In this document: in pieces, positions 20,437 through 47,606 of the stretch
Layout: the number at the start of each line of letters is the position of its first letter
Position numbering within the stretch: the first letter of the stretch is position 1
NCBI GenBank assembly: GCA_020148145.1
Contig: JAHCRE010000011.1
Coordinates: 3,360 to 67,359, forward strand
Source: Patescibacteria group bacterium
GTDB lineage: Bacteria; Patescibacteriota; Minisyncoccia; Minisyncoccales; JAHCRE01
Reading direction: 5' to 3'
Length of the DNA stretch: 64,000 nt
Program-made: the position numbers and the translations under genes
Notes under the pieces: generated by a model
What the model was told of the DNA's origin: nothing
Database searches by the model: none
What the model saw: only the letters and a program-made list of their open reading frames with translations

Positions 20437-20444
20437 TCGCACTA

Positions 20445-20856: not shown

Positions 20857-20888
20857 ATTTTAAGAAAATTTTGTTAAAATATTATAAG

Positions 20889-28540: not shown

Positions 28541-28618
28541 ATATTGTGCGACATTTAATTAGCGGGCATAACCGTTAGGCCTGCCTGCCGCGGGCAGGGT
28601 AGGGGACTAACGGTTTTT
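28541..28618 (+). terminator. conserved 3' module: ATATTGTGCGACATTTA motif plus AACCGTTAG..CTAACGGTTTTT hairpin (GC insertion in the loop)
   Basis: same module at 42184-42244 (-); related module with the motif inverted at 40011-40070. Confidence 0.65.
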
Positions 28619-28664: not shown

Positions 28665-28680
28665 TAAAATATAAAGTGAA

Positions 28681-28776
28681 ATAGTTCTTTAAAATAAAAT
28701 ATGGGGAAGGGAAGAATTTCATCTCCCGCAGAGAGGAAATCAAAAACTGGTTTTTTGCCTGCGGGAGAGTGAAAAA
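28681..28776 (+). promoter_or_regulatory. structured 5' leader A (ATAGTTCTTTAAAA, G-box, hairpin, SD)
   Basis: GGGGAAGGGAAGAA 28703-28716; stem CTCCCGCAG 28723-28731 / CTGCGGGAG 28759-28767. Confidence 0.6.
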
Positions 28777-28993: not shown

Positions 28994-29060
28994 TTCTCCT
29001 TTCCCCTCTTTTTTCGAGCCCGCAAATAGTTGTGGATTCGAAAAAGGAGTTAGTTCTTTA
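28994..29060 (+). repeat. cassette junction J1: C-box plus CTCTTTTTTCGAGC..GAAAAAAGGAG hairpin
   Basis: TTCTCCTTTCCCCTCTTTTTTCGAGCCCGCAAATAGTTGTGGATTCGAAAAAAGGAGTTAGTTC; copies at 29654, 47151(-) and 46381(-). Confidence 0.75.
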
Positions 29061-29148
29061 AAATCAAATATGGGGAAGGGAGAGAATTTATCTCTCGCAG
29101 AGAGGGAGTTAATAAAAATAGCTTCTTGCCTGCGGGAGATGAAAAGAG
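29061..29148 (+). promoter_or_regulatory. structured leader B
   Basis: GGGGAAGGGAGAGA 29072-29085; stem TCTCTCGCAG 29091-29100 / CTGCGGGAGA 29130-29139. Confidence 0.55.
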
Positions 29149-30506: not shown

Positions 30507-30527
30507 GCCCGTTGCTGGGCAGTTTTT
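30507..30527 (+). terminator. rho-independent terminator ending array 1
   Basis: GCCCGTTGCTGGGC + TTTTT. Confidence 0.6.
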
Positions 30528-30545
30528 ATTTTGCTCGGTACGCTA

Positions 30546-30575
30546 TTGACAAAGAAAAATTTAGTGTGCTATAAT
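30546..30575 (+). promoter_or_regulatory. consensus promoter TTGACA-N18-(TGC)TATAAT
   Basis: CGCTATTGACAAAG..GTGTGCTATAAT. Confidence 0.6.
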
Positions 30576-30604
30576 ATAAACACAAATTAAGGAGGGATAG
30601 ATGA

Positions 30605-30958
30605 ATGCTGTTTGTTTGGGTAAGGATAACGCTTCAAGAAGTATCTAAACATGTAGCGGTGATAAAGGAGCTCATTGACAATCTACCAGGAATAGTAGCA
30701 GAAGCATTGAGCGTACCAGGTACTGATGGGGAATTGACTTCAGATGAGATAGAAGTAAAATTCGAAACCTTTGGGCCGTTCGATGTTCATAGCAAAGACA
30801 TAGAAATCATAATCTTGGCTAACGATTACCCGGAAAGAAAGAAAAATCTTGACGAAAGACAAACGCTTATCAAAGAAGGGGTGAAAAGAATCCTGTATTC
30901 CGGCATTACCGGTTTCGTCTGGGTACTTCCGTTGCCAGGTTCTTTCGGAGAATTCTAG
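30605..30958 (+). CDS. hypothetical protein (117 aa)
   Basis: SD AAGGAGGG; no confident family. Confidence 0.55.
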   Translation: MLFVWVRITLQEVSKHVAVIKELIDNLPGIVAEALSVPGTDGELTSDEIEVKFETFGPFDVHSKDIEIIILANDYPERKKNLDERQTLIKEGVKRILYSGITGFVWVLPLPGSFGEF

Positions 30959-30967
30959 CCAAAATCG

Positions 30968-31252
30968 GTGATGGAAATGAGAGTCAGCCTCAAGGTTGTA
31001 AATATTGAAGATGGGCTAGAGAAAGCTAGAGTTGCCAAGATTCACCTTTTCAAAGAAGGGGACAATGATGAAAAGTTCGCTGAAGCCGAAAGAATAGTCA
31101 GGGAAATCTTTGGTGATATACGAGAAGGGGTAGAATTTGTAGCCAAGGGTGAGAAGACTACTGAGATTCATATCCGTCCGAACGCTCGTTTCCTTGAGAA
31201 ATTCAGAGAAGCAAACCGAAGAATCAGAGAGATTTTCTTTCATAAAGCGTAG
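30968..31252 (+). CDS. hypothetical protein (94 aa)
   Basis: co-directional, 9 nt after the previous stop; followed by a GGGGCTTTCC..GGATTGACCCC terminator. Confidence 0.5.
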   Translation: MMEMRVSLKVVNIEDGLEKARVAKIHLFKEGDNDEKFAEAERIVREIFGDIREGVEFVAKGEKTTEIHIRPNARFLEKFREANRRIREIFFHKA

Positions 31253-31351
31253 AAGTATAAAAAACTACGAATTTCCATTAAGGGGCTTTCCAAAAAGGAT
31301 TGACCCCATTTTTTATTCTTAGGGTAAGGAACTGGCGGTTTTTTGATAATA

Positions 31352-31381
31352 TTGACAAAGGGAAAATTAATATATTATAAT
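31352..31381 (+). promoter_or_regulatory. consensus promoter TTGACA-N18-TATAAT
   Basis: ATATTGACAAAGGGAAAATTAATATATTATAAT. Confidence 0.6.
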
Positions 31382-31411
31382 GAAATATCAACTGAATATG
31401 GAGGGAAAGAA

Positions 31412-31762
31412 ATGGAAATTAAAGAGAATGTACTTGTGGCGGTTAGTTCTCCAAAGCATACTTTAGGAAAAGTAGTGAGCAGAGAGGAAAAAGAAGGTGT
31501 CTGGATAGTTGACTGTTGTTCCCCTGTCGGACTTATTAAGGTCTCCGAGAACTTTCTGATACCGATTATTGAACTCCCTGAATCAGATCAAAAACTTAAC
31601 CCTGAAGAGCTTGCCCGAAAATGTAGCCCCAGTATTTTAGCCTATCTCTTTGTCGAAAGACAAACAACCTGGGGTTCCATCGGTTCACTGCATAAGGATC
31701 TCGAAAAGCTTTACGACTCTGTAAGAAAAATACAAGAAGGACTTAAACAAGCAGTAAAATAA
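31412..31762 (+). CDS. small protein, CCSPxG family, paralog 2 (start moved downstream of the promoter)
   Basis: WIVDCCSPVG, ELPESDQKL; SD GGAGGGAAAG; the track start 31343 lies upstream of the -35. Confidence 0.6.
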   Translation: MEIKENVLVAVSSPKHTLGKVVSREEKEGVWIVDCCSPVGLIKVSENFLIPIIELPESDQKLNPEELARKCSPSILAYLFVERQTTWGSIGSLHKDLEKLYDSVRKIQEGLKQAVK

Positions 31763-31912
31763 CCAACCGTCCTGAAATTTCCAGCAAGGGGTTATCCAAA
31801 AAGGATTGACCCCGTTTTTTATTTTAACTCCCTCCAAACAGGTTCTAACATTGTCTTGCAACATGTGTTGTTAGGCCGAGCGTCTCACAAGACATATTAA
31901 GCGACATTTCTT

Positions 31913-32003
31913 TTGATTTTTTGATTTTTTAATCAAATTTTTGACTACTTTTATCTTAAATCGAAGCGCTTCACTTTGAAAAAAATCAAATTTAATCAAA
32001 TTT
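31913..32003. repeat. iteron-like short repeats (TTGATTTTT / AATCAAATTT)
   Basis: TTGATTTTTTGATTTTTT, then AATCAAATTT at 31931, 31984 and 31994 in the opposite orientation. Confidence 0.55.
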
Positions 32004-32069
32004 TTTCAAAAAGTCGATTGCATACCCTGGGATGCAAGGGGTAATATTTATCAACATTTTATTTTGATC

Positions 32070-32118
32070 TTGACAAAAATTGACAAAATTTGACAGGGAG
32101 TAATTTAAAACTTAAAAT
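32070..32118 (+). promoter_or_regulatory. three TTGACA boxes phased at 10 bp, the last with TAAAAT at 17-nt spacing
   Basis: TTGACA at 32070, 32080 and 32090; TAAAAT 32113-32118; 8 nt upstream of the xis-like ATG. Confidence 0.55.
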
Positions 32119-32126
32119 AAAACAAC

Positions 32127-32306
32127 ATGGATCATCTTTTAACCATTAAAGAGGTTGCTAAATATCTCAAGGTCAGCGAGAGGTCTATTTTGCGTTATAT
32201 TGAATCTGGTCGACTTAGAGCTTCTAAGATCGGCCAATGGCGTATCAAGAAAGGGGATTTAGAAAAATTTTTAAAAGAAAACTCAAATGTCAAAAAGAAA
32301 ATTTAA
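32127..32306 (+). CDS. excisionase-family helix-turn-helix DNA-binding protein (59 aa, below the track cutoff)
   Basis: LLTIKEVAKYLKVSERSILRYIESGRLRASKIGQWRIKKGDLEKFL; overlaps the MTase start by 20 nt. Confidence 0.7.
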   Translation: MDHLLTIKEVAKYLKVSERSILRYIESGRLRASKIGQWRIKKGDLEKFLKENSNVKKKI

Positions 32307-33447
32307 AAAAAGAGATGGCTGGGATTTTACAGAGGTACCTTTAAGAATCAGACAGGGTGGGGTTCATTTCTTTCATCACTATACAGCTAAATTTATACCT
32401 CAAATTCCAGAAAAATTTATTAAAATGTACTCCCAAAAACGAAATAATATCGTGGTCGATCCGTTTATGGGCTGTGGGACTACTTTGGTAGTTGCTAAAT
32501 TGATTGGTTGTCATTCCTACGGTGTAGATACCAATCCTTTAGCAGTTAAAATTACTAAAGTAAAAACAATGGTCGTTAACAAAAAAATTGTAGAGGAAAT
32601 AGATGATTTCATTCATTGGATTTCATCTCGTAAAGAATATAGAAAAACAAATAATACAAAATCTCTTTCCAAGACAGATTTTCGACAAGGGGAGAAAGGC
32701 ACATTTCTATTTGAAGGCAGTAAAGAGTGGTTTAGAAATGACGTAGCGGGCAAGATTAAAAACATATTAAATCGAACAAAAGTTTACGACGAACATGTAC
32801 GGGACTTTATAAAAGTCGGGGTTTCGGATTTATTAAAAGGTATGAGTAATGCCCGTATGGATATCAATGTTCCCACGCTTCCATCTCGCCCGATTTACAT
32901 AGATAAAAAGCATTATTATAGAAGGGTAAACAATCGGACAAGATACATTCCGGTTTATTCAAGAGTATTATCGCAAGTTTTAAGAATGAAAAAAGCAATT
33001 TTAGAGTTTAACAAGAACATAAATCATAATTTAATTTGTAAACCTAAGCTGGGCGATGCTAGAGAGTTAAGTAAACACGTAAAGTCGTGTAATCTTGTTA
33101 TAACTTCTCCACCATACTGGTCAGCTCAAAATTATCAGAAACTTCACATGCTCTCATTTAAGTTATTTGGTCTGAACATAGATGAGGAAGATGAAATTGG
33201 AAGGAATGGTCATGACCATTATCAAAAGGACATGGTAAAAGTTCAAGAAGAAATCGCAAAAATTCTTAAAGGATACTATGGTCTTGTTATAGGTAAAGAT
33301 AAGCGGAATCGAGAACATTTGAAGCTCGTAGAATCGGCTAAAAGAGTTGGTTTTAAATTAGTTGATAGGTTTGTTAGACGCTTAAGCAACCAAACATTTT
33401 TTTCTAAACAAATTAAAAATGAGTTTATTTATGTTTTTAAAGTTTAA
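32287..33447 (+). CDS. DNA amino-methyltransferase (N4-C or N6-A), motif I before motif IV
   Basis: VVDPFMGCGTTLVVA (FxGxG) near the N-terminus, ~200-aa insert, then VITSPPYW. Confidence 0.8.
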   Translation: MSKRKFKKRDGWDFTEVPLRIRQGGVHFFHHYTAKFIPQIPEKFIKMYSQKRNNIVVDPFMGCGTTLVVAKLIGCHSYGVDTNPLAVKITKVKTMVVNKKIVEEIDDFIHWISSRKEYRKTNNTKSLSKTDFRQGEKGTFLFEGSKEWFRNDVAGKIKNILNRTKVYDEHVRDFIKVGVSDLLKGMSNARMDINVPTLPSRPIYIDKKHYYRRVNNRTRYIPVYSRVLSQVLRMKKAILEFNKNINHNLICKPKLGDARELSKHVKSCNLVITSPPYWSAQNYQKLHMLSFKLFGLNIDEEDEIGRNGHDHYQKDMVKVQEEIAKILKGYYGLVIGKDKRNREHLKLVESAKRVGFKLVDRFVRRLSNQTFFSKQIKNEFIYVFKV

Positions 33448-33459
33448 ATTTTGATTATT

Positions 33460-34959
33460 ATGAAAACTTTTGATTTTAGCAAATCAGTAATTCAGGAGGT
33501 TATAGATGAATTCGATCGAGCAGAAAAATACATAAAAATAGCTATGTTTCAAATCCACAATGATTTAGTTATTGATAAATTATTCAAAAAAATTAAGGAG
33601 GGGTTAATAGTAGAAATAATAACATTACCTTATGATAGTATTCACGAGAACGTAAGAGAACATGTAACAGAGAGACTAGAAAAGCTTAAATCTAGAGGGG
33701 GTAATATTCTATTCTGTAAATGGAATGTTGGAGACCCTGAAAGAACCACGACAGCAGTGGGAAGGTGGTATTTATTTCATGGAAAGTTCATCGTAACGGA
33801 TAAGGCAGCGATTAGTCTTTCTGCAAATTTTATCCAAACTCCTGAGCTAGACGCAATCCTAATTTTCAGAAATGAGCAAGATAAGATTCAAGAATTTAAT
33901 AATAAATTCGAGGAACTAAAAGAGTTATTCATAATTGAAAATAATGGTTATGAAGGGAATATTAGACAAAAAATATCGGAGACAAAGCACCCAAGAGCTA
34001 AAGAAGTTTTTGCACTTCCAAGGGGAATAAGCGAAGTATATAAAAAAACATGGATACAACATTATCCATCTGAATTATGTCCTAAGGATGTAAATATAGA
34101 AGAAAAACTATATATAACTCCATTTGATTGTAGGGGAAGAAATTTTCTTATGAAGATTATTGATGAGGCCGAAAAATTCGTTTATATTTCCTCTGAAAGT
34201 TTCACTGATAAAGAATTTCCTAATTTCTTAAAAAAAATTAGATTCAAAAATATAGAGATAAAGTTATTAACTGAATTTGGAAGCATGGATTTTTCTGATA
34301 GAATACAAATTTTTATGAAAGAATTATTAGCAGCGGGCGTACAAATGAATACAACAAGAGAAGATTTACATGCCAAACTAGTAATTACAGATAAATTAAT
34401 CGCTATAACCTCAATAAATCTTAATAGAATAAATTTAGGATTTAAGAAAACCGGAGATTTTTGGAGAGAGAACACAGAGACAATACTAATATGTAGAGGT
34501 CACAACATAATAAGGAAAGCAAGACAGAAATATAACGCAATTTTTAATGCATCGGAAAAAATTATTGATAAAATGGCTGAGAGAAATTCATCAGTTGCTG
34601 GGAGACTATTTAGGGATGTGTTCAAAATTAGATCGGGTTCAGATGCTAAGCTATTTTTAGCTAAACTGAAATTGAATGTAGATATTAACAAAGAGAAATT
34701 TTTATTAGATGTTTTAAAACTAACCATTAAGCTAGCTAATAATTTTAATGTGAGAATAATTTCAAAAAAAGAAGTATTGATGGCTTTAATATTAAATTAT
34801 CTAAGTGAGAGGAAGCATGATTTCAATGAATTATCCGAGAAATTAGATCCAATTATAGAGCGAGCAGAAATAGAACCCGTCTTAGACATTCTTGTTTCAC
34901 GTAATCTAATTGTAAAGCAAGGAGAATTTTACAAGATAAACGTTGATGCAATTTTCTAA
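33460..34959 (+). CDS. PLD-family (two HKD motifs) nuclease, likely the restriction partner, with a C-terminal winged-helix-like region
   Basis: HGKFIVTD and HAKLVITD motifs; 3 nt after the MTase stop (TTG 33451 or ATG 33460). Confidence 0.7.
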   Translation: MKTFDFSKSVIQEVIDEFDRAEKYIKIAMFQIHNDLVIDKLFKKIKEGLIVEIITLPYDSIHENVREHVTERLEKLKSRGGNILFCKWNVGDPERTTTAVGRWYLFHGKFIVTDKAAISLSANFIQTPELDAILIFRNEQDKIQEFNNKFEELKELFIIENNGYEGNIRQKISETKHPRAKEVFALPRGISEVYKKTWIQHYPSELCPKDVNIEEKLYITPFDCRGRNFLMKIIDEAEKFVYISSESFTDKEFPNFLKKIRFKNIEIKLLTEFGSMDFSDRIQIFMKELLAAGVQMNTTREDLHAKLVITDKLIAITSINLNRINLGFKKTGDFWRENTETILICRGHNIIRKARQKYNAIFNASEKIIDKMAERNSSVAGRLFRDVFKIRSGSDAKLFLAKLKLNVDINKEKFLLDVLKLTIKLANNFNVRIISKKEVLMALILNYLSERKHDFNELSEKLDPIIERAEIEPVLDILVSRNLIVKQGEFYKINVDAIF

Positions 34960-34967
34960 GGCAAAAA

Positions 34968-34991
34968 AGCCCATCGCTGGGCTGTTTTTTT
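34968..34991 (+). terminator. rho-independent terminator after the R-M pair
   Basis: AGCCCATCGCTGGGCT + TTTTTTT. Confidence 0.65.
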
Positions 34992-35045
34992 ATCCAGTTT
35001 GACACTTATTAAAAAGCCAGCTACTTTGAAAGTGGGAGATTACTT

Positions 35046-35528
35046 ATGAAAGAAAAAAATAAATTAAAAAAGATAAAATATAAAATTAAAACAGCTCTCG
35101 ATCAATTATACAAAACTGATTATTTTCTATTCGAAAAAGATTTGTGTGAAAGATGTATAAATCATAAATTTGCAATATATTTGGAACAACAAAGTTTTGG
35201 TAAAGGATACTTTATCGACTGTGAATATAATAAATCCCATCTTAATCAAAGAACTAGCCCAAAAAGAGTCTCTAGTGAGAAAGGAAACTATATCGACATC
35301 ATTATCACCAAAAGAGACGGTAATTATAGGAACGATTTTATTTGTTTTGAGGTTAAGAAATGGAAGAATTATAGAAAGAAAAATAAGGATATAGAAAAAT
35401 TACAAATTTTAACCAAAGGAATACGATTTGGCTATGATTATGGTTTTTATGTCATTTTAGGAAGGACAAGAGATGAAACAAAAGTTGAAATATATAAAGG
35501 AGGAAAACTTTTAAAACACACTTTCTAG
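35046..35528 (+). CDS. PD-(D/E)xK nuclease-fold-like protein (160 aa)
   Basis: YIDIIITKRD ... FICFEVKKW (D..ExK pattern); SD GGGAG. Confidence 0.45.
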   Translation: MKEKNKLKKIKYKIKTALDQLYKTDYFLFEKDLCERCINHKFAIYLEQQSFGKGYFIDCEYNKSHLNQRTSPKRVSSEKGNYIDIIITKRDGNYRNDFICFEVKKWKNYRKKNKDIEKLQILTKGIRFGYDYGFYVILGRTRDETKVEIYKGGKLLKHTF

Positions 35529-35639
35529 GATGATTTAAATGGTGTTGGAACATCCTTAAGTGTCGGGCAAGGTATTTATGCGAGGTTTAGCAAAAACATA
35601 AAAGGTCGAAGAATTAATTGAGAAATAACAAAAAATATT

Positions 35640-37190
35640 ATGGCGAAAAGATTTAACAAAACTGACAAAGTTGTAATAGAACCAAAAGAAGAATTTGCTT
35701 ATGGATATATCATCAAAGCTTTAGCAGGAGGACTATACCCAAACAAGTTTCATGTTATTAGAGAATATATTCAGAATGCTTTTGATGCAGTAGTTAATTG
35801 GAAAGATACTCATAATGGCTCAAATGTTATTGTAAAAATAACAGTTAAAAAGCCCTCTATATTTATATTTGACAACGGAACAGGCATGAATAGGGTTACG
35901 CTTAACGAGTACAGGAAAGTAGGATATTCAAGGAAAAAAATAGGCGAGGCTGTTGGATTTAGGGGCATAGGGAAACTAGCCGGTATTTCAGTGGCCAGAA
36001 AATTAATAGTTACAACAAGTCCTTATGGCGTTAAAGAAAAATACGCTCTGGAATTTGATGCCGAGAGAATGCTTAAAGAGATCGATGATTTAAAAAAACG
36101 TAAGCAGAACATACCCCTCAATACACTGATAGAAAAATATACGAACATAAGCTCCGATGTCGAAAAGGCAGACAAGCATTATACATTTATAGAGCTTCAT
36201 GGAATAAAGCAGGATTCGAAGATTCTTTTTGATAAAAATAAGCTAAAAGACTACATTTCGAAAAATACACCCGTTCCTTTTGATCCAAACTTTGTTTACG
36301 GAAAAGAAATCGAAGATGGAATTAAGAAATTAGTTGATGACTATAACTGCGTAAATATTTTTGTAGACGGTGATAATATCTATAAGCCTTACATTCCGAA
36401 CCTAAACAATCCTAGACACATCGTAGTCTGGGAAAAAAACAAAACAAAAATATTAGGATACTGCTGGTATTGCGAAAACAAAAAAAGGGGGCAGATAAAG
36501 CCTATTGACAAAGCAGGTTTGGTTTATAGATACAAAAATTTTGCAGTTGGAGACCATGATTTGCCTAGGCGAACATTGTGGGATACTTCTACCCATCTAG
36601 CTTTTTACTTTATAGGGGAGATTTACATTTGTGATAAGAATATGTTACCAACTGCACAAAGAGATGATTTTGAGCAGACATCAGCTCGTAGTAGATTTTA
36701 TAATGAAGGTGTCCAGATTTCAAAGGAAATTAACAGAATAGCTAGGGCAAGTTCTGGAATAAGAAGGGCGTTGCATTATGTCGATGTTGGAAAGAACCTA
36801 ATTTCAGAAGTTAAACAGGACCTTCAGAAGCAGGAGCATTATTTAAAAGACCTCGGTGCGGAAAAAGTCGCACAGATTTACAATGTCATAAAAGGCATAA
36901 AAGAAAGAAAAAAGAATATTCCTAAAAAAAATAAGAAGAATAGAATTCTGGCAGACAAAGTCGTTAAGCAAGGGGAATTGTTGCTTAAGAAATTTGGAGG
37001 TGTCAAAAGATTAAGTAGGGAGTATGATATAACAAGAAAAATCAATCTCAATGCTCAGGCTAAAGATGTATATTCTGTGGCTATCAGAACTCTGAAAGAT
37101 TTTTTTATTGGTAACCAGCAAGAACTAGAAAAGGCGATAAGGCTTTTTCAGAAAAACTTGACGACCTTTTTCTCAAAAAAGAACAAATGA
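35640..37190 (+). CDS. GHKL (Bergerat-fold) ATPase, MORC/paraMORC-like, unknown C-terminal half
   Basis: REYIQNAFDA (N box), FDNGTGM (G1), GFRGIGKLAG (G2); AAGGTCGAA box 36 nt upstream. Confidence 0.75.
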   Translation: MAKRFNKTDKVVIEPKEEFAYGYIIKALAGGLYPNKFHVIREYIQNAFDAVVNWKDTHNGSNVIVKITVKKPSIFIFDNGTGMNRVTLNEYRKVGYSRKKIGEAVGFRGIGKLAGISVARKLIVTTSPYGVKEKYALEFDAERMLKEIDDLKKRKQNIPLNTLIEKYTNISSDVEKADKHYTFIELHGIKQDSKILFDKNKLKDYISKNTPVPFDPNFVYGKEIEDGIKKLVDDYNCVNIFVDGDNIYKPYIPNLNNPRHIVVWEKNKTKILGYCWYCENKKRGQIKPIDKAGLVYRYKNFAVGDHDLPRRTLWDTSTHLAFYFIGEIYICDKNMLPTAQRDDFEQTSARSRFYNEGVQISKEINRIARASSGIRRALHYVDVGKNLISEVKQDLQKQEHYLKDLGAEKVAQIYNVIKGIKERKKNIPKKNKKNRILADKVVKQGELLLKKFGGVKRLSREYDITRKINLNAQAKDVYSVAIRTLKDFFIGNQQELEKAIRLFQKNLTTFFSKKNK

Positions 37191-38059
37191 AATTTATGAA
37201 ACATAGACAGTATGAATCTACCGAAAATAAAGATAGGGTTAGAAAAGAAGATAAGGAGTTGATAGAAAAAGAATTTAAGAAAAAGAAAGCTAAATTATCG
37301 TACCTCGGCATGCCTTCTGGAGAATTGAAAGATATTTTAGAATGGCGAGATTATTTAGACAGATGTACGGCAGTTGAAAATAATTTTGTTCAAAGACATG
37401 AGCTGGCATTAAATGTTGTTCGTTTTAATTTAAATGGTAAAATTGATATTCTTTTTGGAGATATAGACGATATTTTGATAAAGGGGAAAGATAAGTACGA
37501 TAATAAATTGATATTTCCTTATGATATTATATTTCTTGATTATTTCGGCGGCATTTTATATAGAGGACTTAGAAGAGTCAATGCTATAGCTTCTCTTATT
37601 TCTAAACAGAGAGGGAATTCTTTTTTGTTGTTCCTAACTTTTAATCTTAAGGAGAGCAGATATGCTAAGAATACAATCGTGGATACGCTTAGAAAGATTA
37701 AACAGGAGTTGTCAGTATTCTGCTGGGATGAAAAAACAAAAAAACAAATAGTAGAGATTACTAAGTGGTATGAGGATGCGGAAGAGATTTACAGACAGAA
37801 AATATTCGTACCATATTTTATTAAAACTAATGCTGAAAATGTAGGATTTGAAGTGTATGCTTACCCACCTGTCTTTTATGAAGGTTTTAGAAAGAATCCC
37901 ATGTTACATTTCGCTTTCAAGTTAGTACCTGAAGGAAAATTTCCCACAAAGGCAGTGAGCAAGCAGACAATAATTGATATAATAAATCTTGATCTAAAAG
38001 GAGTTTCCAGGGGGATGGTAAGTGTTTTAAAAAAGAGGTCGCCAAATTTAAAAATATAA
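37187..38059 (+). CDS. unknown protein with a Rossmann/SAM-MTase-like motif order
   Basis: LSYLGMPSG .. AVENN .. FGDIDD .. IIFLDYFGG; ATGA overlap with the GHKL stop; no DPPY/NPPY. Confidence 0.55.
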   Translation: MKFMKHRQYESTENKDRVRKEDKELIEKEFKKKKAKLSYLGMPSGELKDILEWRDYLDRCTAVENNFVQRHELALNVVRFNLNGKIDILFGDIDDILIKGKDKYDNKLIFPYDIIFLDYFGGILYRGLRRVNAIASLISKQRGNSFLLFLTFNLKESRYAKNTIVDTLRKIKQELSVFCWDEKTKKQIVEITKWYEDAEEIYRQKIFVPYFIKTNAENVGFEVYAYPPVFYEGFRKNPMLHFAFKLVPEGKFPTKAVSKQTIIDIINLDLKGVSRGMVSVLKKRSPNLKI

Positions 38060-38077
38060 TATATTACACTTTTAAAT

Positions 38078-39193
38078 ATGAACAAAAGAGGCAAAATGAA
38101 AGTCCTATTAGTCGAACCAAATTTCCCAATACCACCCAAAAGTAAGAACCACAGGGATTTTTTGCCTATCGGCTTATTGAAGCTAGCGAGTTATCATAGG
38201 GATAAAGGTGATAAAATAAAGCTTGTTAGGGGCGACCATTATTTTTTTGATTTTTATCCCAATCAAGTAAAAATAACTTCGCTTTTTACATATTGGTTTA
38301 ATTATGTATGGGAGAGTGTAAAGTTCTATAAAGAAAACTATCCGAAGGCCAAAGTAATAGTAGGCGGTATCTACGCGTCATTAATGCCAGAGCATTGCAG
38401 AAAATCAGGTTGCGATGAAGTATTTATTGGAGTGGATAACAAGGTTGAGAAATTCAAGCCTGCTTATGATCTTGTGGATGTGGATTATCAAATTGTCCAT
38501 GCTTCAAGAGGCTGTATTAGGAGGTGCAAATTCTGCGGAACTTGGAAAATCGAACCGAAATTTACTTATAAAAAGAGCATAAAAGATGAGGTATGCAGTA
38601 ATAGGATAATATTTTATGACAATAACCTTTTGGCTAATCCGCACATAAAGGAAATCCTTGAAGAATTGAAAAATGCCAAGCACAACGACAGGGTTGTGTA
38701 TTCGGAAAGCCAATGCGGTATTGACGGAAGGCTTCTGACTCCTGAAGTGGCTAAATTATTAAAACAAGCGAGATTCCTTAATCCAAGGATTGCTTGGGAT
38801 CACGGTTATGCACAAAGGCGTATGATAAAAAAACAGATTGATATGCTTGTTGATGCGGGCTATCCTGCAAAAGAAATTTATGTTTTTATGATTTATAACT
38901 TCGAACAGGATTATTATGAAATGCTGAAAAAGCTGAAGCAATGCAAGGGATGGGGTGTGCAGATAGCTGATTGTAGGTATAGGCCCCTGAATCAAATTTT
39001 TGACAATTACAATCCAAGAGAAAAGCAGACAGACAAGGATTATTTCATATATCCAAAATGGACAGATAGGCAGATAAAGCTCTTCAGGAAAAAAGTAAGG
39101 CAGCAGAATATTATGATAAGACATGGTTTTAGTCTTTATAGTAAAGAGCTGGAAAGATTGGGGGCAAAGAGAAGGATGAATAAGTCCCACTAA
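38078..39193 (+). CDS. B12-binding-domain radical SAM protein
   Basis: N-terminal KVLLVEPN..LPIGLLKLASY Rossmann-like region; ASRGCIRRCKFCGTW (CxxxCxxC). Confidence 0.75.
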   Translation: MNKRGKMKVLLVEPNFPIPPKSKNHRDFLPIGLLKLASYHRDKGDKIKLVRGDHYFFDFYPNQVKITSLFTYWFNYVWESVKFYKENYPKAKVIVGGIYASLMPEHCRKSGCDEVFIGVDNKVEKFKPAYDLVDVDYQIVHASRGCIRRCKFCGTWKIEPKFTYKKSIKDEVCSNRIIFYDNNLLANPHIKEILEELKNAKHNDRVVYSESQCGIDGRLLTPEVAKLLKQARFLNPRIAWDHGYAQRRMIKKQIDMLVDAGYPAKEIYVFMIYNFEQDYYEMLKKLKQCKGWGVQIADCRYRPLNQIFDNYNPREKQTDKDYFIYPKWTDRQIKLFRKKVRQQNIMIRHGFSLYSKELERLGAKRRMNKSH

Positions 39194-39305
39194 ATCTGCT
39201 ACCGAACCAATTAATTAACAATCCTCCTGCACTCTGGGGAGTTCCGGAGGACAAGAAATAACTCCTTAGAAAAAATTGAAGATTTCTTACGGGGCAGGGA
39301 ATTAA

Positions 39306-39572
39306 TTGAGAAATAAAACTATGGGCAAGTCAGGTAGAAAGATAAGGTCGACAGGAAATAATTTAAGAACATGCGAAGTATTAACCAAGGATGGTGTGTG
39401 GAGAGCTGGGTTTTTGTTTATCGATTCTTCTGATTATCTTGTTCTTGCTAATAATATTTATAACGACTCATTGATGGGTCCACTTAAACAAAGAAAAATC
39501 AGATGTATACATAAAGAAGCTGATTTTACAGTCTTTCCTCGTGAGAAAGTGTGTAATATAAAATTTTTCTAG
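39306..39572 (+). CDS. hypothetical protein (start uncertain: TTG 39306 or ATG 39321)
   Basis: ORF only. Confidence 0.4.
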   Translation: MRNKTMGKSGRKIRSTGNNLRTCEVLTKDGVWRAGFLFIDSSDYLVLANNIYNDSLMGPLKQRKIRCIHKEADFTVFPREKVCNIKFF

Positions 39573-39579
39573 CGGAGGT

Positions 39580-40011
39580 ATGATTATTTCATCCCCAACA
39601 CTTGAATATTTAATTATTGTTCCGGACAAAGCACGTTCTTTCCGATCTCGTTACGCTAAAACATATCGGGAAAAAGTACGCGAATGCGCCAAAGCTGTCA
39701 TCAAAAAAATGTTTTACAGTGACGATATCAATCTTAAGATGGACTATTTCTACAGAGGAAATCGAAACGTCGATATGGATAATGTTACCAAGAATGTAAT
39801 GGATGCATTGACGGGTTTAGTTTATCCAGATGACAAATTGGTCAAAGATCAGAGTTCTAGGGCGCATCGGATCGATAAGGTTACGAGTATAAAACGAGAA
39901 GTGTTCGATATATTCAAACCATTGCTTCATTACAAAGAATATCTAGCGATACGTATAAGCTCGAAGAGTTGCTTTCACAGGAAACAAGCTAGCAAAAGAA
40001 CGAACGATTAA
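39580..40011 (+). CDS. rusA: RusA-family Holliday junction resolvase
   Basis: NVDMDNVTKNVMDALTGLVYPDDKLV (D-DN-K..D.L.G..Y.DD). Confidence 0.7.
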   Translation: MIISSPTLEYLIIVPDKARSFRSRYAKTYREKVRECAKAVIKKMFYSDDINLKMDYFYRGNRNVDMDNVTKNVMDALTGLVYPDDKLVKDQSSRAHRIDKVTSIKREVFDIFKPLLHYKEYLAIRISSKSCFHRKQASKRTND

Positions 40012-40070
40012 TGTCGCACAATACACCTTGTAAGACAAAGAAAACCGTTAGGGTAGGGAAGTAGCGGTTT
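40011..40070 (+). terminator. ATGTCGCACAATA motif (inverted relative to 28541) plus AAACCGTTAGGGTAGGGAAGTAGCGGTTT hairpin
   Basis: motif overlaps the last base of the rusA stop codon; hairpin then T-run. Confidence 0.6.
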
Positions 40071-40081
40071 TATTTTTATTA

Positions 40082-40109
40082 TTGACAAAGTCTATATTTA
40101 GCATATAAT
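40082..40109 (+). promoter_or_regulatory. consensus promoter TTGACA-N16-TATAAT
   Basis: ATTGACAAAGTCTATATTTAGCATATAAT. Confidence 0.6.
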
Positions 40110-40138
40110 GTAGGTAGCACAAAATTGGAGGGAGATAG

Positions 40139-40576
40139 TTGGGTATAAAACAAGTTGAGGAAGCTAGTCTTGAAGGATACGAGGGACCAATTTTTCCTGA
40201 AGAGATCAAAGAACTAAACAAAATACTCAGGGCAGTAGTGCGAAAGCATCTCCGACAAAAGGACATAGATACATTGAAAGAAATCGAAAATGTAGAGAGA
40301 ATTTCTTATGCTATCGTTACCACAGACCGTTATCGTTGGAACTTCGCTTTATTTGCCAGAATGCGAAAGAGTGGAGAAGTTATTGTTGTTTTTCCACGAT
40401 TGACATCCTTTGTTTTAGATAGGTCTGTCGCCGTCTATGTTAAATCAAAAGCTTCAATTAGTGTTCAGGAAGTCAATGTGTTCCTTGAAAGGATTCAACT
40501 CAGATTTCACAGAGCCTGGAGAAGACAAACGAGAAAAGAACTTCAGGAAATCCTTGACCCAATATCTAAAGACTAA
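40139..40576 (+). CDS. hypothetical protein (145 aa, TTG start)
   Basis: SD GGAGGGAG; hairpin terminator 40578-40616. Confidence 0.55.
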   Translation: MGIKQVEEASLEGYEGPIFPEEIKELNKILRAVVRKHLRQKDIDTLKEIENVERISYAIVTTDRYRWNFALFARMRKSGEVIVVFPRLTSFVLDRSVAVYVKSKASISVQEVNVFLERIQLRFHRAWRRQTRKELQEILDPISKD

Positions 40577-40825
40577 AGGGAGGTAAAATCACAATATTTT
40601 TTCCTCCCGTTTTTTTATATATAAACTCTGTAGGGGAGTAGAGGCCTTCCACTTGACATAGCCTCTTCGGCTATTTATTATGAATATAGAGAGGGTCGCA
40701 CAATGTAGGTTAAGCGACACTTTATATCTGAAGAGAAGTACCGCTTAACCTGACGCAGATTTTGCGCACATTTAAGTAAATATCGCAAGAATCTGCTCTT
40801 TCTTATATTTTTATAAAAAATAATT

Positions 40826-41782
40826 ATGAAAAAATCAGACAAACCAATTATAAAACATATCCCCGACTTTTTGGATTATTGCGAAATAGAAAAAGGATTA
40901 TCAGAAAAAACTCAAGAGAATTATGATCGCTACCTCCGGAAGTTCGTTTTCTGGCTGAAAAGGACCAAAAAAGAGGCTCTTTTGCCCCACGAGCTAAGTG
41001 CTGATGATATTTGGCATTATAGACTCTATTTATCGAGATATAAGGATAATAAGGGCAAAATCCTTAAAAAAACCACCCAGAACTACTATTTAATCGCTCT
41101 GAGAGCCCTTTTAAGCTATTTTACAGCCAAAGATATAGTTTCACCTCCGGTGGATAAAATAAAGCTCCCAAAGGATGCTAGAAGGGCAAAAACCGTCAAA
41201 TTCCTTAAATTAGAGCAGGTTGAGAAGCTTTTAATGACCCCTAATACTAAAAACAAGATTGGTTTAAGAAACAGGGCTATTTTAGAGACATTATTCTCAA
41301 CCGGCCTAAGAATAGCTGAACTTGTGGCCCTTAATAAAGAACAATTCGCTAATATAAGAAATAAAAAGGATTTGGAGCTTTCAATTATAGGCAAAGGAGA
41401 TGTTCCCCGAACAGTATATTTTTCAGAGCGTGCCTTATCTTGGGTTAAAAAATATTTGGAGACTCGCAAGGATAAGGAAAAAGCCCTATTTATTCATTAT
41501 AGGGCTAGAAAAGACGTAGAATGCCGTTTAACAGCTCGTTCTATAGAAAGAATTGTTAAAAAATATGCAATCTTGGCTGGGGTGCCGATTTTTACTACTC
41601 CCCATACCATCCGCCATTCTTTTGCCACCGATCTCTTAGCGAAAGGCGTTGACTTAAGAACCATACAGGAATTCTTAGGCCACAAAAATATTGTTACCAC
41701 TCAGATATATACCCATGTGACAAGTAAGCGCTTAAGAGACATCCATCGCAAATTTCATAGTGGAAAAAAATTAAAAGAATAA
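40826..41782 (+). CDS. tyrosine recombinase, XerC/XerD family (island integrase or housekeeping Xer)
   Basis: NRAILETLFSTGLRIAELVAL, HTIRHSFATDLL, LGHKNIVTTQIYTHV (R..HxxR..Y). Confidence 0.85.
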   Translation: MKKSDKPIIKHIPDFLDYCEIEKGLSEKTQENYDRYLRKFVFWLKRTKKEALLPHELSADDIWHYRLYLSRYKDNKGKILKKTTQNYYLIALRALLSYFTAKDIVSPPVDKIKLPKDARRAKTVKFLKLEQVEKLLMTPNTKNKIGLRNRAILETLFSTGLRIAELVALNKEQFANIRNKKDLELSIIGKGDVPRTVYFSERALSWVKKYLETRKDKEKALFIHYRARKDVECRLTARSIERIVKKYAILAGVPIFTTPHTIRHSFATDLLAKGVDLRTIQEFLGHKNIVTTQIYTHVTSKRLRDIHRKFHSGKKLKE

Positions 41783-41831
41783 AAAAAACGGGGTTAATCC
41801 TCTCTATGGGCTAACCCCTTTTTGGGAATCT

Positions 41832-42110
41832 TTAAGGTACTGTCCTTAGCATCGCTAAACTGATAATTATATCAACAAGGTATTTCTCAACAATTCTTAC
41901 AGGTACTAGTCCTTGGTCTCTTTTAGGGATATCTGGTACGAGAGGTATCAGAGTTGTGCCAGATACAGCATTACGGACAGTAGCATGGCCACACCATCGT
42001 ATCGTCCACCGATCTTCGCCTTCGTGTACAAGAGTGACTGCGAACTTTTTATGAACCGTATCCACTGCTAACATATTCTCTTGAATTTCCATTTTCTCTT
42101 GAATCTCCAT
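41832..42110 (-). CDS. small protein, diverged member of the CCSPxG family (paralog 3)
   Basis: same length class, W-T-I-R-W-C and IPLVPDIP segments collinear with paralogs 1 and 2; same promoter and terminator types. Confidence 0.5.
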   Translation of the reverse strand: MEIQEKMEIQENMLAVDTVHKKFAVTLVHEGEDRWTIRWCGHATVRNAVSGTTLIPLVPDIPKRDQGLVPVRIVEKYLVDIIISLAMLRTVP

Positions 42111-42134
42111 TTAGTCCTCACCTTTCATATTTAG

Positions 42135-42162
42135 ATTATAGCAAATAATTTTCATTTGTCAA
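42135..42162 (-). promoter_or_regulatory. consensus promoter TTGACA-N16-TATAAT
   Basis: minus strand GCTATTGACAAATGAAAATTATTTGCTATAAT. Confidence 0.6.
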
Positions 42163-42183
42163 TAGCACGCCAAGTGAAATATA

Positions 42184-42244
42184 AAAAACCGTTAGTTCCC
42201 TACTCTAACGGTTTTTCACTACCTAATAAATGTCGCACAATATT
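42184..42244 (-). terminator. conserved 3' module (ATATTGTGCGACATTTA + AACCGTTAG..CTAACGGTTTTTT) downstream of the SOR gene
   Basis: minus strand reads ATATTGTGCGACATTTATTAGGTAGTGAAAAACCGTTAGAGTAGGGAACTAACGGTTTTTT. Confidence 0.65.
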
Positions 42245-43279: not shown

Positions 43280-43432
43280 AATCTTTTTTATCTTTTTTAA
43301 TTTTAGTTTACGACCTTTCATTTCTATTCTACCAAAAAACCGCCTTCTTGGCGATTTTTTATTACCCAATCAAACGTCGCACAATATTAAAGGCTCTTGA
43401 CTAATAGAAGACCTAAATTCAATGAACCTAAT

Positions 43433-47600: not shown

Positions 47601-47606
47601 ATCTTA

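What the first reader, a model, noticed from the sequence alone, without database searches (positions are those of the whole stretch)
31831..41790. ~10-kb integrative island flanked by inverted copies of a small-gene unit
The segment runs from a noncoding arm (iterons, phased TTGACA boxes) and a 59-aa excisionase-type HTH gene (32127-32306) to a Xer-family tyrosine recombinase (40826-41782). The cargo is an MTase, a PLD nuclease, a PD-(D/E)xK-like protein, the GHKL trio and RusA.

The left edge is sharp. The terminator flank CCCCGTTTTTTATTTTAA matches the copy at 20846-20863, and the two sequences diverge after 31830.

The island sits between two members of the CCSPxG small-protein family in inverted orientation (31412-31762 + and 41832-42110 -). 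Each has the same promoter type and the same GGGGTTA..ACCCC terminator. The right-hand terminator doubles as the integrase terminator.

I could not find convincing direct att repeats. The only shared sequence is a 10-mer, TTAAGCGACA, at 31897 and 40710, and that is chance-level.
Basis: partly seen in the sequence, partly recalled or inferred. Interest (0 to 1): 0.6.

Follow-up and report, generated by a model that had tools for sequence, protein, structure and literature searches.

The report
Defence island beside chromosome's dif site
An 8-kb block of anti-phage genes lies next to the replication terminus of a tiny uncultivated bacterium, has no integrase of its own, and is bracketed by look-alikes of the site that the host's chromosome-resolving recombinase (Xer) recognises, so it probably moves by borrowing that host enzyme.

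Summary

1. The recombinase (40826-41782) is not the island's integrase. It is a conserved, syntenic Xer (65-85% identity in 160 Patescibacteria loci, usually murG-gltX-xer><uppS-L27-pyrG). It sits at the GC-skew and gene-strand switch, which marks the terminus.

2. A 28-bp 11-6-11 site in its leader (40693-40720, GGGTCGCACAA TGTAGG TTAAGCGACAC) is conserved upstream of xer in 126 of 154 relatives. It is the likely dif.

3. The "chance" 10-mer TTAAGCGACA is the right arm of that site and of a second full site at the island's left edge (31880-31907). A third site (40011-40038) overlaps the RusA stop codon.

These are the only three such sites in 64 kb, and all score above shuffled controls. The island-proximal arms match the clade's dif-arm consensus 22/22, so an excised circle would carry a perfect dif mimic.

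No island gene has a homologue near xer in any of the 160 relatives. gltX-to-xer spacing is 1.9-3.5 kb in relatives against 14.6 kb here.

Best reading: a Xer-exploiting (IMEX- or pdif-module-like) defence island. Mobility itself is not shown.

The inverted small-gene units are paralogous cassettes, not island ends.

The parts
28544..28554 (-). Half-dif site. It has the consensus Xer arm ATGTCGCACAA followed by TATTAT and no second arm. It lies left of dif in (-) orientation, 18 bp after the stop of the conserved gene 28181-28525.
   Evidence: The orientation obeys the polarity rule seen in relatives.
31343..31827 (+). Small-gene cassette U3 (promoter, ORF 31412-31762, terminator). It is the left neighbour of the island, not part of it. 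Paralogues lie at 20443-20863, 30523-31321 and 41781-42185(-).
31880..31907 (+). Site L: GCGTCTCACAA GACATA TTAAGCGACAT. This dif-like 11-6-11 site marks the island's left boundary. The outer (left) arm is weak and the island-proximal (right) arm is 11/11 consensus.
   Evidence: 26.7 bits arms-only; null maximum 16.6; 25.0 bits; null maximum 18.1.
31908..32126 (+). Noncoding arm with AATCAAATTT x3, inverted TTTTGATTTT x2 and three TTGACA boxes at 10-bp phase. It is probably the operator/promoter region of the HTH-MTase-nuclease operon. A replication origin is not excluded.
32127..32306 (+). 59-aa HTH_17 / excisionase-family DNA-binding protein whose gene overlaps the MTase start.
   Evidence: (TIGR01764, 50.9 bits; MAD1 36 bits, below its cutoff of 80). 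An HTH_17 gene also precedes hsdM beside the same GHKL trio in L103.
32287..33447 (+). N6/N4 DNA methyltransferase (FxGxG and SPPY motifs).
   Evidence: Type II MTase, 1.7e-28.
33460..34959 (+). PLD-family nuclease with two HxK(x)4D motifs. It is the likely restriction partner of the MTase.
   Evidence: (PLDc_2, 4e-21).
35046..35528 (+). 160-aa protein related to PD-Lambda-3_A, with a D...EVK motif compatible with PD-(D/E)xK.
   Evidence: 7.1e-14; sequence. No Pfam hit.
35640..39193 (+). Three-gene unit: MORC-like GHKL ATPase (35640-37190), 290-aa unknown protein (37187-38059), and a B12-binding/radical-SAM-like protein with CxxxCxxC (38078-39193). This is a candidate defence module.
   Evidence: All three genes recur in L082 and L103; L083 has two shorter ORFs (215 and 139 aa) in the third position; L104 keeps only the first two. 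R-M genes adjoin in L083, L103 and L104, and a CBASS-like gene in L103.
39321..40011 (+). 83-aa ORF plus a RusA-family Holliday-junction resolvase (39580-40011). These are the last genes of the island.
   Evidence: A small ORF plus RusA pair recurs in L089 and L091.
40011..40038 (+). Site M: ATGTCGCACAA TACACC TTGTAAGACAA. This 11-6-11 site overlaps the RusA stop codon. The island-proximal arm is 11/11 consensus and the outer arm is weak.
   Evidence: (22.9 bits; null maximum 18.1). A similar arm+TATACC full site follows xer in L152.
40041..40611 (+). Terminator (40041-40071), perfect promoter (40082-40109), orphan 145-aa gene (40139-40576) and its terminator. This separate window-specific segment lies between M and the xer promoter.
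   Evidence: (only one distant homologue).
40632..40692 (+). Ancestral xer promoter region (GGGGAG box; TTGACA-17-TATTAT at 40653-40681). It is orthologous to that of relatives and lies to the left of dif.
40693..40720 (+). Site R, the candidate chromosomal dif: GGGTCGCACAA TGTAGG TTAAGCGACAC.
   Evidence: (42.7 bits).
40826..41782 (+). Host Xer-type tyrosine recombinase (XerD-like, R..K..HxxR..H..Y). It is not part of the island.
42230..42240 (+). Half-dif site (ATGTCGCACAA+TATTAT), right of dif in (+) orientation. In relatives it directly follows the xer stop. Here it is separated from xer by cassette U4 (41781-42185).
43374..43384 (+). Second half-dif site right of dif, in (+) orientation (ACGTCGCACAA+TATTAA).

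Best explanation
**Setting.** The window spans the replication terminus of a Patescibacteria (Nealsonbacteria/Paceibacterota-like) chromosome. The recombinase at 40826-41782 is the host's conserved Xer. Its 28-bp target, the chromosomal dif (40693-40720), lies in its own leader just downstream of its promoter. This forms a linked dif-xer module like those of XerS and XerH.

**The island.** An accessory island of about 8.1 kb (31908-40010) has been inserted 0.7 kb to the left of this module. It carries:
- an HTH-controlled MTase and PLD-nuclease restriction-modification pair;
- a PD-Lambda-3A-like protein;
- a GHKL/unknown/radical-SAM-like trio;
- RusA.

It encodes no recombinase. It is bracketed by two further Xer-type 11-6-11 sites, L and M. 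Their island-proximal arms are perfect copies of the clade's dif arms, and their outer arms are weak.

**Inferred mechanism.**
- The element once existed as a circle carrying a dif mimic (ATGTCGCACAA-N6-TTAAGCGACAT).
- Host Xer recombined this mimic with a weak pseudo-site near dif (GCGTCTCACAA-N6-TTGTAAGACAA), producing L and M.
- The three central regions differ (GACATA, TACACC, TGTAGG). Exchange would therefore probably stop at, or be biased towards, a Holliday junction.
- The element's own RusA, or replication, could resolve that junction. The same mismatch would keep the island from being excised during normal dif recombination.

**Shown.** The island is an insertion. The recombinase is host Xer. 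The dif-like site is conserved at the skew switch. L, M and R are the only such sites in the window.

**Inferred.** Xer binds these sites. The integration route. The role of RusA.
For: - **The recombinase is a host gene.** It has 297 relatives among species representatives in genome contigs and more than 471 in metagenome contigs. The best 160 are 65-85% identical. Synteny murG-gltX-xer><uppS-L27-pyrG holds in most of them.
- **Family placement.** The best family matches are XerD and XerC (219 and 218 bits). The closest solved structure is E. coli XerD (5e-38).
- **The site is conserved.** It lies 5-250 bp upstream of xer in most of the 69/77 genome loci and 57/77 metagenome loci that have it, and up to about 750 bp in three. 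The central TGTAGG is included.
- **Terminus position.** GC skew is positive to the left and negative to the right in 44/46 and 24/24 relatives. In the window the cumulative skew peaks at about 41.8 kb, with converging genes.
- **Only three sites.** A PWM built only from relatives finds R, L and M as the only 11-6-11 sites in 64 kb. They score 27.6, 25.0 and 22.9 bits against a null maximum of 18.1.
- **Arm pattern.** Inner arms match the consensus 22/22. Outer arms match 14/22, match each other 8/11, and share the rare GTCT where 98% of sites have GTCG.
- **Insertion.** No island gene is found in 160 related loci. gltX-start to xer-start is 1.9-3.5 kb in relatives against 14.6 kb here.
- **No recombinase in the island.** No island ORF hits a recombinase or transposase family.
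- **Modules in relatives.** Other accessory modules are bounded by secondary dif-like sites with strong inner arms. Examples are L003 (4127/5612) and L031 (2361/6025, around GHKL+Dcm+Vsr). There are 9 secondary sites in 6 loci against 0 expected per 1.2 Mb. Central-region classes recur.
- **Viral contigs.** AT-rich viral contigs carry consensus-arm sites with non-dif centres. One has a terminase, and none of the five AT-rich contigs carries a close xer homologue in the stretch held (L097 encodes a 26%-identical tyrosine recombinase).
- **Precedents.** LME-1/XerL (PMC9765430) and GGI and other IMEX (PMC5357621).
Against: - No circular junction, empty site or second copy of the island was found. 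The only other assembly of it (L085) is colinear with the window.
- The closest relatives are only 84-85% identical in Xer, so no same-species comparison exists.
- The island is not inside dif. The orthologous xer promoter remains on the dif side, so the classical IMEX route (crossover within the resident dif) is excluded. A weak secondary target has to be postulated instead.
- M's outer arm is weak. With the strict left/right PWM, M is within the noise (10.5-11.8 bits against a null maximum of 16.6).
- The shared-deviation pattern of the outer arms holds in 2 of 3 modules examined. It fails in L031.
- Single consensus arms also occur as polar half-sites that are clearly chromosomal features. 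L and M could therefore belong to the terminus architecture rather than to the island.
- The viral-contig count (6) is not clearly above the controls (3 and 0).
- HTH_17 precedes a methylase beside the same trio elsewhere, so it is more likely a regulator than an excisionase.
- Island GC is not distinctive.
Confidence: 0.55

Rival explanations
1. L, M and the half-sites are part of the chromosome's own terminus architecture. They would be Xer-binding sites used for SMC unloading, fork trapping or orientation, comparable to XerD-binding sites in Bacillus. The island arrived by another route, for example natural transformation with homologous recombination into a terminus-proximal hot spot, and simply lies between two such sites.
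For: - Consensus single arms are abundant, conserved and strictly polar around dif in relatives. Counts are left (-) 25 and (+) 0; right (+) 87 and (-) 2.
- They sit in intergenic positions just after stop codons, as M does.
- An M-like full site (arm+TATACC) occupies the usual post-xer half-site position in L152.
- No evidence of excision was found.
- Both sides of dif-xer vary among relatives without obvious sites in many cases.
Against: - M's strong arm is (+) on the left of dif, which breaks the otherwise near-perfect polarity rule.
- L and M fall exactly at the two ends of a block absent from all 160 relatives.
- The inner arms together rebuild a 22/22 dif mimic.
- In L003 and L031, accessory modules are likewise bracketed by sites with strong inner arms.
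Confidence: 0.3
2. The island is the integrated remnant of a small plasmid or phage-like replicon. Its Xer site originally served multimer resolution, like cer or psi. The iteron-rich arm beside L would be its former origin, and integration was an occasional Xer-mediated accident that has since become fixed.
For: - Iteron-like direct and inverted repeats lie immediately beside L.
- RusA is typical of phage and plasmid genomes.
- Phage-like contigs carry consensus-arm sites.
- Plasmid Xer sites are well known (PMC5357621, Figure 3 legend lists cer and psi).
Against: - No replication initiator, partition, capsid or terminase gene is present in the island.
- The repeats sit directly upstream of an HTH-regulated operon, so they can be read as operators.
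- GHKL-trio and RusA homologues elsewhere have no such sites nearby.
Confidence: 0.1
3. One reading: a self-contained integrative island of about 10 kb. Its own Xer-family integrase forms the right end, an excisionase forms the left end, and the whole lies between inverted copies of a small-gene unit.
For: - A tyrosine recombinase and an excisionase-family HTH occupy opposite ends of the segment.
- The small-gene units are truly paralogous and inverted.
Against: - The recombinase is conserved at 65-85% identity in 160 related loci, in conserved synteny, with none of the island genes beside it.
- It has its own conserved promoter and target site.
- The inverted orientation of the cassettes follows the strand switch at the terminus. 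A fourth and a fifth cassette lie elsewhere.
Confidence: 0.03

Closest known systems
LME-1 and the XerL/dif system of Legionella (PMC9765430)
   Same: A mobile element without its own integrase carries a dif mimic. After integration it is flanked by one intact and one altered dif-like site. The system uses a single recombinase, and the site lies at the GC-skew maximum. There too, the element is what revealed the host dif.
   Different: LME-1 integrates inside dif, whereas this island lies 0.7 kb from dif with the xer promoter left intact. In LME-1 the element's site is a shortened copy of dif, whereas here the element-side arms are the perfect ones and the chromosome-side arms are weak. XerL is unrelated to XerC/D motifs, whereas this enzyme is XerD-like and its site resembles classical dif.
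Gonococcal genetic island and other IMEX elements (CTX, TLC, EludIMEX-1; PMC5357621)
   Same: A genomic island with no integrase, bounded by dif and dif-like sites that have one good and one divergent arm. Stability is ascribed to the imperfect site.
   Different: Those elements use XerC and XerD and insert at dif itself. Mobility here is untested. The cargo here is defence genes, in a candidate-phyla-radiation bacterium.
pdif modules of Acinetobacter plasmids (PMC7399989)
   Same: Gene modules bracketed by pairs of Xer recognition sites. Different cargo is found between similar sites (window, L003, L031, L162), and the site classes recur.
   Different: Those modules are plasmid-borne, use XerC/XerD sites and carry resistance genes. 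No identical module has yet been seen here in two contexts.
XerS/difSL and XerH/difH single-recombinase modules (PMC5357621)
   Same: The dif site lies immediately next to the recombinase gene as one genetic module at the terminus, with nearly symmetric arms.
   Different: This protein is 318 aa and closest to XerD, XerC and XerA, not to the 350-360-aa XerS or XerH (XerS model 102 bits; XerH structure 8e-13). The site is a classical 11-6-11 of 28 bp. Whether the genome has only one Xer was not tested.
XerD-binding sites that unload SMC at the Bacillus subtilis terminus (Karaboja et al. 2021, cited in PMC12322038; site details from memory)
   Same: Sites resembling one half of dif cluster around the terminus, separate from dif itself.
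   Different: Here the sites are strictly polar about dif. They carry a conserved extra hexamer (TATTAA), and one sits directly after the xer stop codon. Their function is untested.

Membership tests
IMEX (integrative mobile element exploiting Xer) | No self-encoded integrase or transposase | tested here: met
   None of the ORFs between L and the xer promoter hits a recombinase or transposase family. The adjacent recombinase is the host's.
IMEX (integrative mobile element exploiting Xer) | Integrated at the host dif site | tested here: not met
   The island ends at 40010/40038, which is 0.65 kb left of dif. The orthologous xer promoter remains between island and dif. A single crossover inside R is therefore excluded.
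IMEX (integrative mobile element exploiting Xer) | Flanked by dif-like sites | tested here: met
   L scores 25.0-26.7 bits and M 22.9 bits, against null maxima of 16.6 and 18.1. They are the only sites besides dif in 64 kb.
IMEX (integrative mobile element exploiting Xer) | Integration and excision catalysed by host Xer | not testable with these tools
   This needs recombination assays or junction reads. The only other assembly is colinear.
Chromosomal dif/Xer dimer-resolution system | Tyrosine recombinase of the Xer family with catalytic R-K-HxxR-H-Y | tested here: met
   Full-length matches to the XerD, XerC and XerA models. E. coli XerD is the closest structure. The motifs LRIAEL, GKG, HTIRHSF, LGH and IYTHV are visible.
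Chromosomal dif/Xer dimer-resolution system | Equivalog-level match to XerC or XerD | tested here: not met
   Scores are 219 and 218 bits against cutoffs of 329.6 and 335. XerA scores 189.5 against 220. This is a distinct Xer lineage.
Chromosomal dif/Xer dimer-resolution system | Site of about 28 bp with 11-bp imperfect inverted arms and a 6-8 bp centre | tested here: met
   The site is 11-6-11 with arms 8-9/11 symmetric. It is 17-18/28 identical to E. coli dif as recalled from memory.
Chromosomal dif/Xer dimer-resolution system | Located at the replication terminus (GC-skew switch) and conserved across the clade | tested here: met
   The window's cumulative skew maximum is at about 41.8 kb. 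68 of 70 relatives switch sign at the site. The site is present in 126 of 154 loci that have upstream sequence.
Chromosomal dif/Xer dimer-resolution system | Resolves chromosome dimers, with FtsK dependence | not testable with these tools
   The XerD RQ-QQ patch described in PMC5357621 reads RD-RK here. Its significance is unknown.
Single-recombinase Xer system | Only one Xer paralogue in the genome | not tested
   No second Xer-like gene lies within 10 kb in the 80 genome-collection relatives or in the 64-kb window. Whole genomes could not be read. L092 and L154 do carry two adjacent paralogues.
pdif-type Xer modules | The same module found between Xer sites in different contexts | tested here: not met
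   No second copy of this island exists in 160 related loci, or near GHKL or RusA homologues. Only the site classes recur.
Integron | IntI-type integrase with attI and attC cassettes | tested here: not met
   The integron-integrase model scores 91 bits against a cutoff of 265, far below the Xer models. The genes carry their own promoters.
MADS defence system | MAD1 HTH and its partners at equivalog level | tested here: not met
   MAD1 scores 36 bits against a cutoff of 80. No other mad genes were hit.
Phage-type integrative island with its own integrase and excisionase | The integrase belongs to the island and is absent from empty sites | tested here: not met
   The recombinase is present in all 160 relatives without the island.

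The most novel reading that the evidence does not exclude
The terminus of these Patescibacteria may be organised by one Xer recombinase in two additional ways.

First, conserved half-dif sites (arm + TATTAA) are arranged in strictly opposite polarity on the two sides of dif, one of them directly after the xer stop codon. These could act as polar Xer-binding landmarks for SMC unloading, fork trapping or FtsK-like orientation.

Second, full secondary sites with recurrent central-region classes could define exchangeable gene cassettes around dif, including this defence island. That would be a chromosomal, Xer-driven cassette platform analogous to integrons or pdif modules.
Probability: 0.3. Interest if true: 0.75.

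Novelty: new member of a known kind. Interest (0 to 1): 0.5.

Why it matters
- **A terminus marker.** It gives a sequence-defined replication terminus (a dif-xer module) for a large group of uncultivated, reduced-genome bacteria. No dif/Xer system turned up for them in the literature search. That helps genome finishing and replichore analysis.
- **Gene flux.** It points to host-Xer hijacking as a route by which defence genes enter these tiny genomes, which carry few conventional mobile-element enzymes.
- **Testable predictions.** It gives exact junction sequences for the excised circle and the empty site.
- **Terminus organisation.** The polar half-sites, if they are Xer-bound, would be a new handle on how chromosomes are organised at the terminus in bacteria that lack Tus, RTP or MatP.

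Tried and rejected
- **Rfam scan of the whole window.** It found only tRNA-Lys, so the conserved site is not a known RNA. A leader hairpin pairing the right arm with a downstream complement exists only in a subclade. It cannot explain conservation where the site lies 5-7 bp from the start codon.
- **Second assembly of the island (L085).** It maps to window 32259-40870 at 100% identity. Its ends are not at the island borders, so it gives no sign of an empty site or a circle.
- **Search for closer relatives.** The best Xer identity is 84-85% in both the genome and the metagenome collections, so no same-species empty site is available.
- **Contexts of GHKL homologues (L082, L083) and RusA homologues (L086-L091).** No dif-like sites were found.
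- **The flank gene 40139-40576.** It is an orphan with a single 32%-identical homologue, so it cannot be used to find the unoccupied target.
- **Base composition.** Island GC is 0.328 against 0.333 for the left flank, which is not informative.
- **Viral-contig scan for consensus arms.** It gave 6 hits against 3 and 0 for the control patterns. This is suggestive only. Individual hits (L095, L098) are convincing by their extended matches.
- **Simple IMEX insertion into R.** Rejected because of the position of the promoter.
- **Integron and MADS membership.** Both were rejected on scores.

Full report
**1. What the window is**

Genes run on the + strand up to about 41.8 kb and on the - strand afterwards. 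Cumulative GC skew peaks at the same point. The flanks are housekeeping genes: mur genes, aminoacyl-tRNA synthetases, L27, L9, pyrG, dnaK, dnaJ and grpE.

The source is a 66-kb metagenome scaffold. Its relatives are Patescibacteria, labelled Nealsonbacteria, Paceibacterota, Staskawiczbacteria and Wildermuthbacteria. Converging genes together with a plus-to-minus skew switch are the signature of a replication terminus.

**2. Checking the observation**

- HTH_17/excisionase-family protein (TIGR01764, 50.9 bits);
- N6_N4 methyltransferase;
- a PLD nuclease with two HKD motifs;
- a 160-aa protein matching PD-Lambda-3_A (7e-14);
- a MORC-like GHKL ATPase, a 290-aa unknown protein, and a B12-binding/radical-SAM-like protein;
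- RusA;
- a 318-aa tyrosine recombinase.

The repeats in the noncoding arm are there. The repeated terminator flank is there. The small proteins at 20500, 31412 and 41832 are 31-35% identical and share promoter and terminator types. There are further such cassettes (30523-31321), so they are a dispersed paralogous family. Their inverted orientation follows the strand switch.

**3. The recombinase is the host's Xer**

- One scan of one-genome-per-species contigs found 297 relatives, the best 80 being 65-85% identical.
- A metagenome scan found more than 471 relatives, the best 80 being 72-84% identical.
- In most loci the neighbours are murG-gltX upstream and uppS-L27-pyrG downstream and convergent. 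In one subgroup the module is inverted relative to those arms.
- None of these 160 loci contains a homologue of any island gene.
- The protein matches the XerD, XerC and XerA models over its full length but below their equivalog cutoffs (219/329.6, 218/335, 189.5/220).
- Its nearest solved structure is E. coli XerD.

**4. A conserved dif-like site**

The sequence GGGTCGCACAA TGTAGG TTAAGCGACAC (40693-40720) is conserved upstream of xer. At 20/28 identity or better it is present in 69 of 77 genome loci and 57 of 77 metagenome loci.

- Conservation is confined to these 28 bp plus a promoter (TTGACA-17-TATTAT) that ends about 12 bp upstream.
- The arms are 8-9/11 symmetric.
- The layout is 11-6-11, and 17-18/28 positions match E. 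coli dif as I recall it.
- GC skew is positive to the left of the site and negative to the right of xer in 44/46 and 24/24 relatives.
- A dif site linked to its recombinase gene is described as a hallmark of the single-recombinase systems XerS and XerH (PMC5357621).

I therefore read this site as the chromosomal dif. Binding and dimer resolution remain untested.

**5. The dismissed 10-mer is an att-like arm**

I built a weight matrix from the relatives' sites only and scanned the window.
- With the strict left-arm/right-arm model, only R and L (31880-31907, GCGTCTCACAA GACATA TTAAGCGACAT) stand out. L scores 26.7 bits on its arms against a maximum of 16.6 in 100 shuffles.
- With a generic-arm model, which suits one recombinase binding both arms, exactly three sites exceed the null maximum of 18.1: R at 27.6, L at 25.0 and M at 22.9 bits.
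- M (40011-40038, ATGTCGCACAA TACACC TTGTAAGACAA) overlaps the RusA stop codon.
- L lies 52 bp after the neighbouring cassette's terminator.

L and M therefore bracket exactly the noncoding arm plus the ten genes from HTH to RusA.

**6. Where the insertion is**

The xer promoter and a GGGGAG box upstream of it (40632-40692) are orthologous to those of relatives and lie to the left of dif. A crossover inside the resident dif would have left this promoter at the far (left) end of the island, and it did not. Classical IMEX integration into R is thus excluded.

The window-specific DNA runs from about 28.56 kb to about 40.61 kb. gltX-start to xer-start is 14.6 kb here against 1.9-3.5 kb in about 45 relatives. 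The gene at 28181 is ancestral, with homologues after gltX in four loci. Within this variable stretch, the L-M block is the cleanly delimited unit. The orphan gene 40139-40576, with its own promoter, is a separate piece.

**7. The arm pattern suggests an attP x attB history**

In any insertion by site-specific recombination, the inner arms come from the element and the outer arms from the target.
- The inner arms (M-left and L-right) equal the clade consensus at 22/22 positions, better than the resident dif at 19/22.
- The outer arms match the consensus 14/22 and each other 8/11. Both carry GTCT where 98% of sites have GTCG.
- The same pattern of strong inner and weak outer arms with a shared deviation is seen around a module in L003. 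Strong inner arms, without a shared deviation, surround a GHKL+Dcm+Vsr module in L031.
- Secondary full sites occur in at least nine relatives (9 sites in 6 genome loci against 0 expected; an array of four in L162). Central regions recur: CATAGA, GGTRTA/TAYACC and GACATM.
- Five AT-rich viral contigs carry consensus-arm sites with other centres. One encodes a terminase, and none carries a close xer homologue in the stretch held (L097 encodes a 26%-identical tyrosine recombinase). The raw count (6) is not clearly above the controls (3 and 0).

**8. Mechanism proposed**

A circular element with a dif mimic is recombined by host Xer with a weak site near dif.

Because the central regions differ (GACATA, TACACC, TGTAGG), exchange of both strand pairs is unlikely. 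A Holliday junction would instead be resolved by replication or by a resolvase. The island's RusA is a candidate, which is my inference. Holliday-junction processing does matter for CTX integration (PMC3442271). The mismatched centres and weak outer arms would also stabilise the insert, as shown for LME-1's altered site (PMC9765430).

The HTH_17 protein is more likely an operon regulator than an excisionase. An HTH_17 gene also precedes hsdM next to the same GHKL trio in an unrelated defence island (L103).

**9. Cargo**

The GHKL/290-aa/radical-SAM-like genes recur together: all three in L082 and L103, the first two followed by two shorter ORFs in L083, and the first two only in L104. Restriction-modification genes adjoin in L083, L103 and L104, and a CBASS-like gene in L103. 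The GHKL protein has 1688 homologues across phyla. No PADLOC or NCBIfam model identifies the trio. It is a candidate defence system in its own right.

**10. What remains open**

No excision product, empty site or second copy was found. Consensus single arms also exist as conserved, strictly polar half-sites around dif. Counts are left (-) 25 and (+) 0; right (+) 87 and (-) 2. L and M could therefore be part of the terminus architecture, with the island lying between them by chance. I give that rival 0.3.

M's (+) orientation to the left of dif breaks the polarity rule, which favours an element origin.

**11. Verdict**

The finding is a real insertion whose interpretation needs correcting. It is a defence island that lacks an integrase, sits beside (not in) the dif-xer module at the terminus, and is bounded by Xer-type sites. 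It is an IMEX- or pdif-module-like element in a lineage where neither dif nor such elements had turned up in my literature search. Interest is moderate. The polar half-sites and the cassette-like secondary sites are the more novel lead.

Noticed in passing
window 28544-28554(-), 42230-42240(+), 43374-43384(+); relatives L002-L081 and L106-L185: A conserved half-dif motif TAAATGTCGCACAATATTAA (dif left arm + TATTAA, no second arm) is strictly polar about dif. In relatives, left of dif there are 25 (-) and 0 (+) copies. Right of dif there are 87 (+) and 2 (-). One copy usually lies 0-60 bp after the xer stop. In the window they sit between stop codons and terminator hairpins, and only within about 12 kb of dif.
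   Followed up: partly
L162 3475-6518; L180 2737; L152 4983; L003 4127/5612; L031 2361/6025; L004 17352; L013 14319; L026 47/6988; L041 520/4299: Secondary full Xer-type sites near dif in relatives, including an array of four in L162 with CATAA-N6-TTATG arms. Central-region classes recur across genomes (CATAGA, GGTRTA/TAYACC, GACATM). Some of these sites flank restriction-modification or metabolic gene modules.
   Followed up: partly
L095 1597-1620, L098 5653-5676, L099 14405-14428, L094 2661-2684, L097 2548-2571 (IMG/VR contigs): AT-rich viral contigs carry sites with consensus dif arms but other central regions. L098 encodes a large terminase. L095's site is nearly a perfect dif (TGTACG centre) with no xer nearby. 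L097 has the site 300 bp from its own 26%-identical tyrosine recombinase.
   Followed up: partly
L092 5617-8093; L154 7962 and 9485: Two contigs carry two adjacent paralogues of this Xer (75% and 63% identical to the window's protein in L092). Some members of the clade may therefore have a two-recombinase arrangement.
   Followed up: no
window 35640-39193; L082, L083, L103, L104: The GHKL ATPase, 290-aa protein and B12/radical-SAM-like protein recur as a unit across phyla. The unit lies beside R-M genes in L083, L103 and L104, and a CBASS-like gene lies nearby in L103. It is not covered by PADLOC or NCBIfam models, so it is a possible undescribed defence system.
   Followed up: partly
window 28673-28746, 29042-29115 and inverted 47552-47619: A 70-nt element (…TAGTTCTTTAAAATAAAATATGGGGAAGGGA…CTCCCGCAGAGAGG…) is repeated three times just downstream of consensus promoters. 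It may be a shared structured leader or a small RNA. There is no Rfam match.
   Followed up: no
window 20250-20339 and 51752-51841: A 90-nt inverted repeat (84% complementary) has one copy on each side of the terminus in intergenic positions. Each copy is co-oriented with local transcription. Its function is unknown.
   Followed up: no
window 48811-48886 and 51121-51196: 76-nt hairpin-rich elements, 72% alike, lie at the 5' ends of the uppS and pyrG transcription units on the - strand. They may be a shared cis-regulatory leader.
   Followed up: no
window 11812-11890 and 12320-12398: A 79-nt direct repeat (96% identical) containing a terminator hairpin and a promoter-like TATAAT flanks the small gene 12038-12289.
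   Followed up: no
window 40708-40752 and 40756-40770; L002, L006, L007, L075: In a subclade the xer leader can form a hairpin between the dif right arm (GGTTAAGCG) and a downstream complement (CGCTTAACC), with compensating changes in relatives. A second hairpin, GCGCAgattTTGCGC, follows. This may link dif occupancy to xer expression.
   Followed up: no
window 41781-42185: Small-gene cassette U4 sits between the xer stop and the half-site that directly follows xer in most relatives. The cassette itself therefore looks like an insertion at that junction.
   Followed up: no
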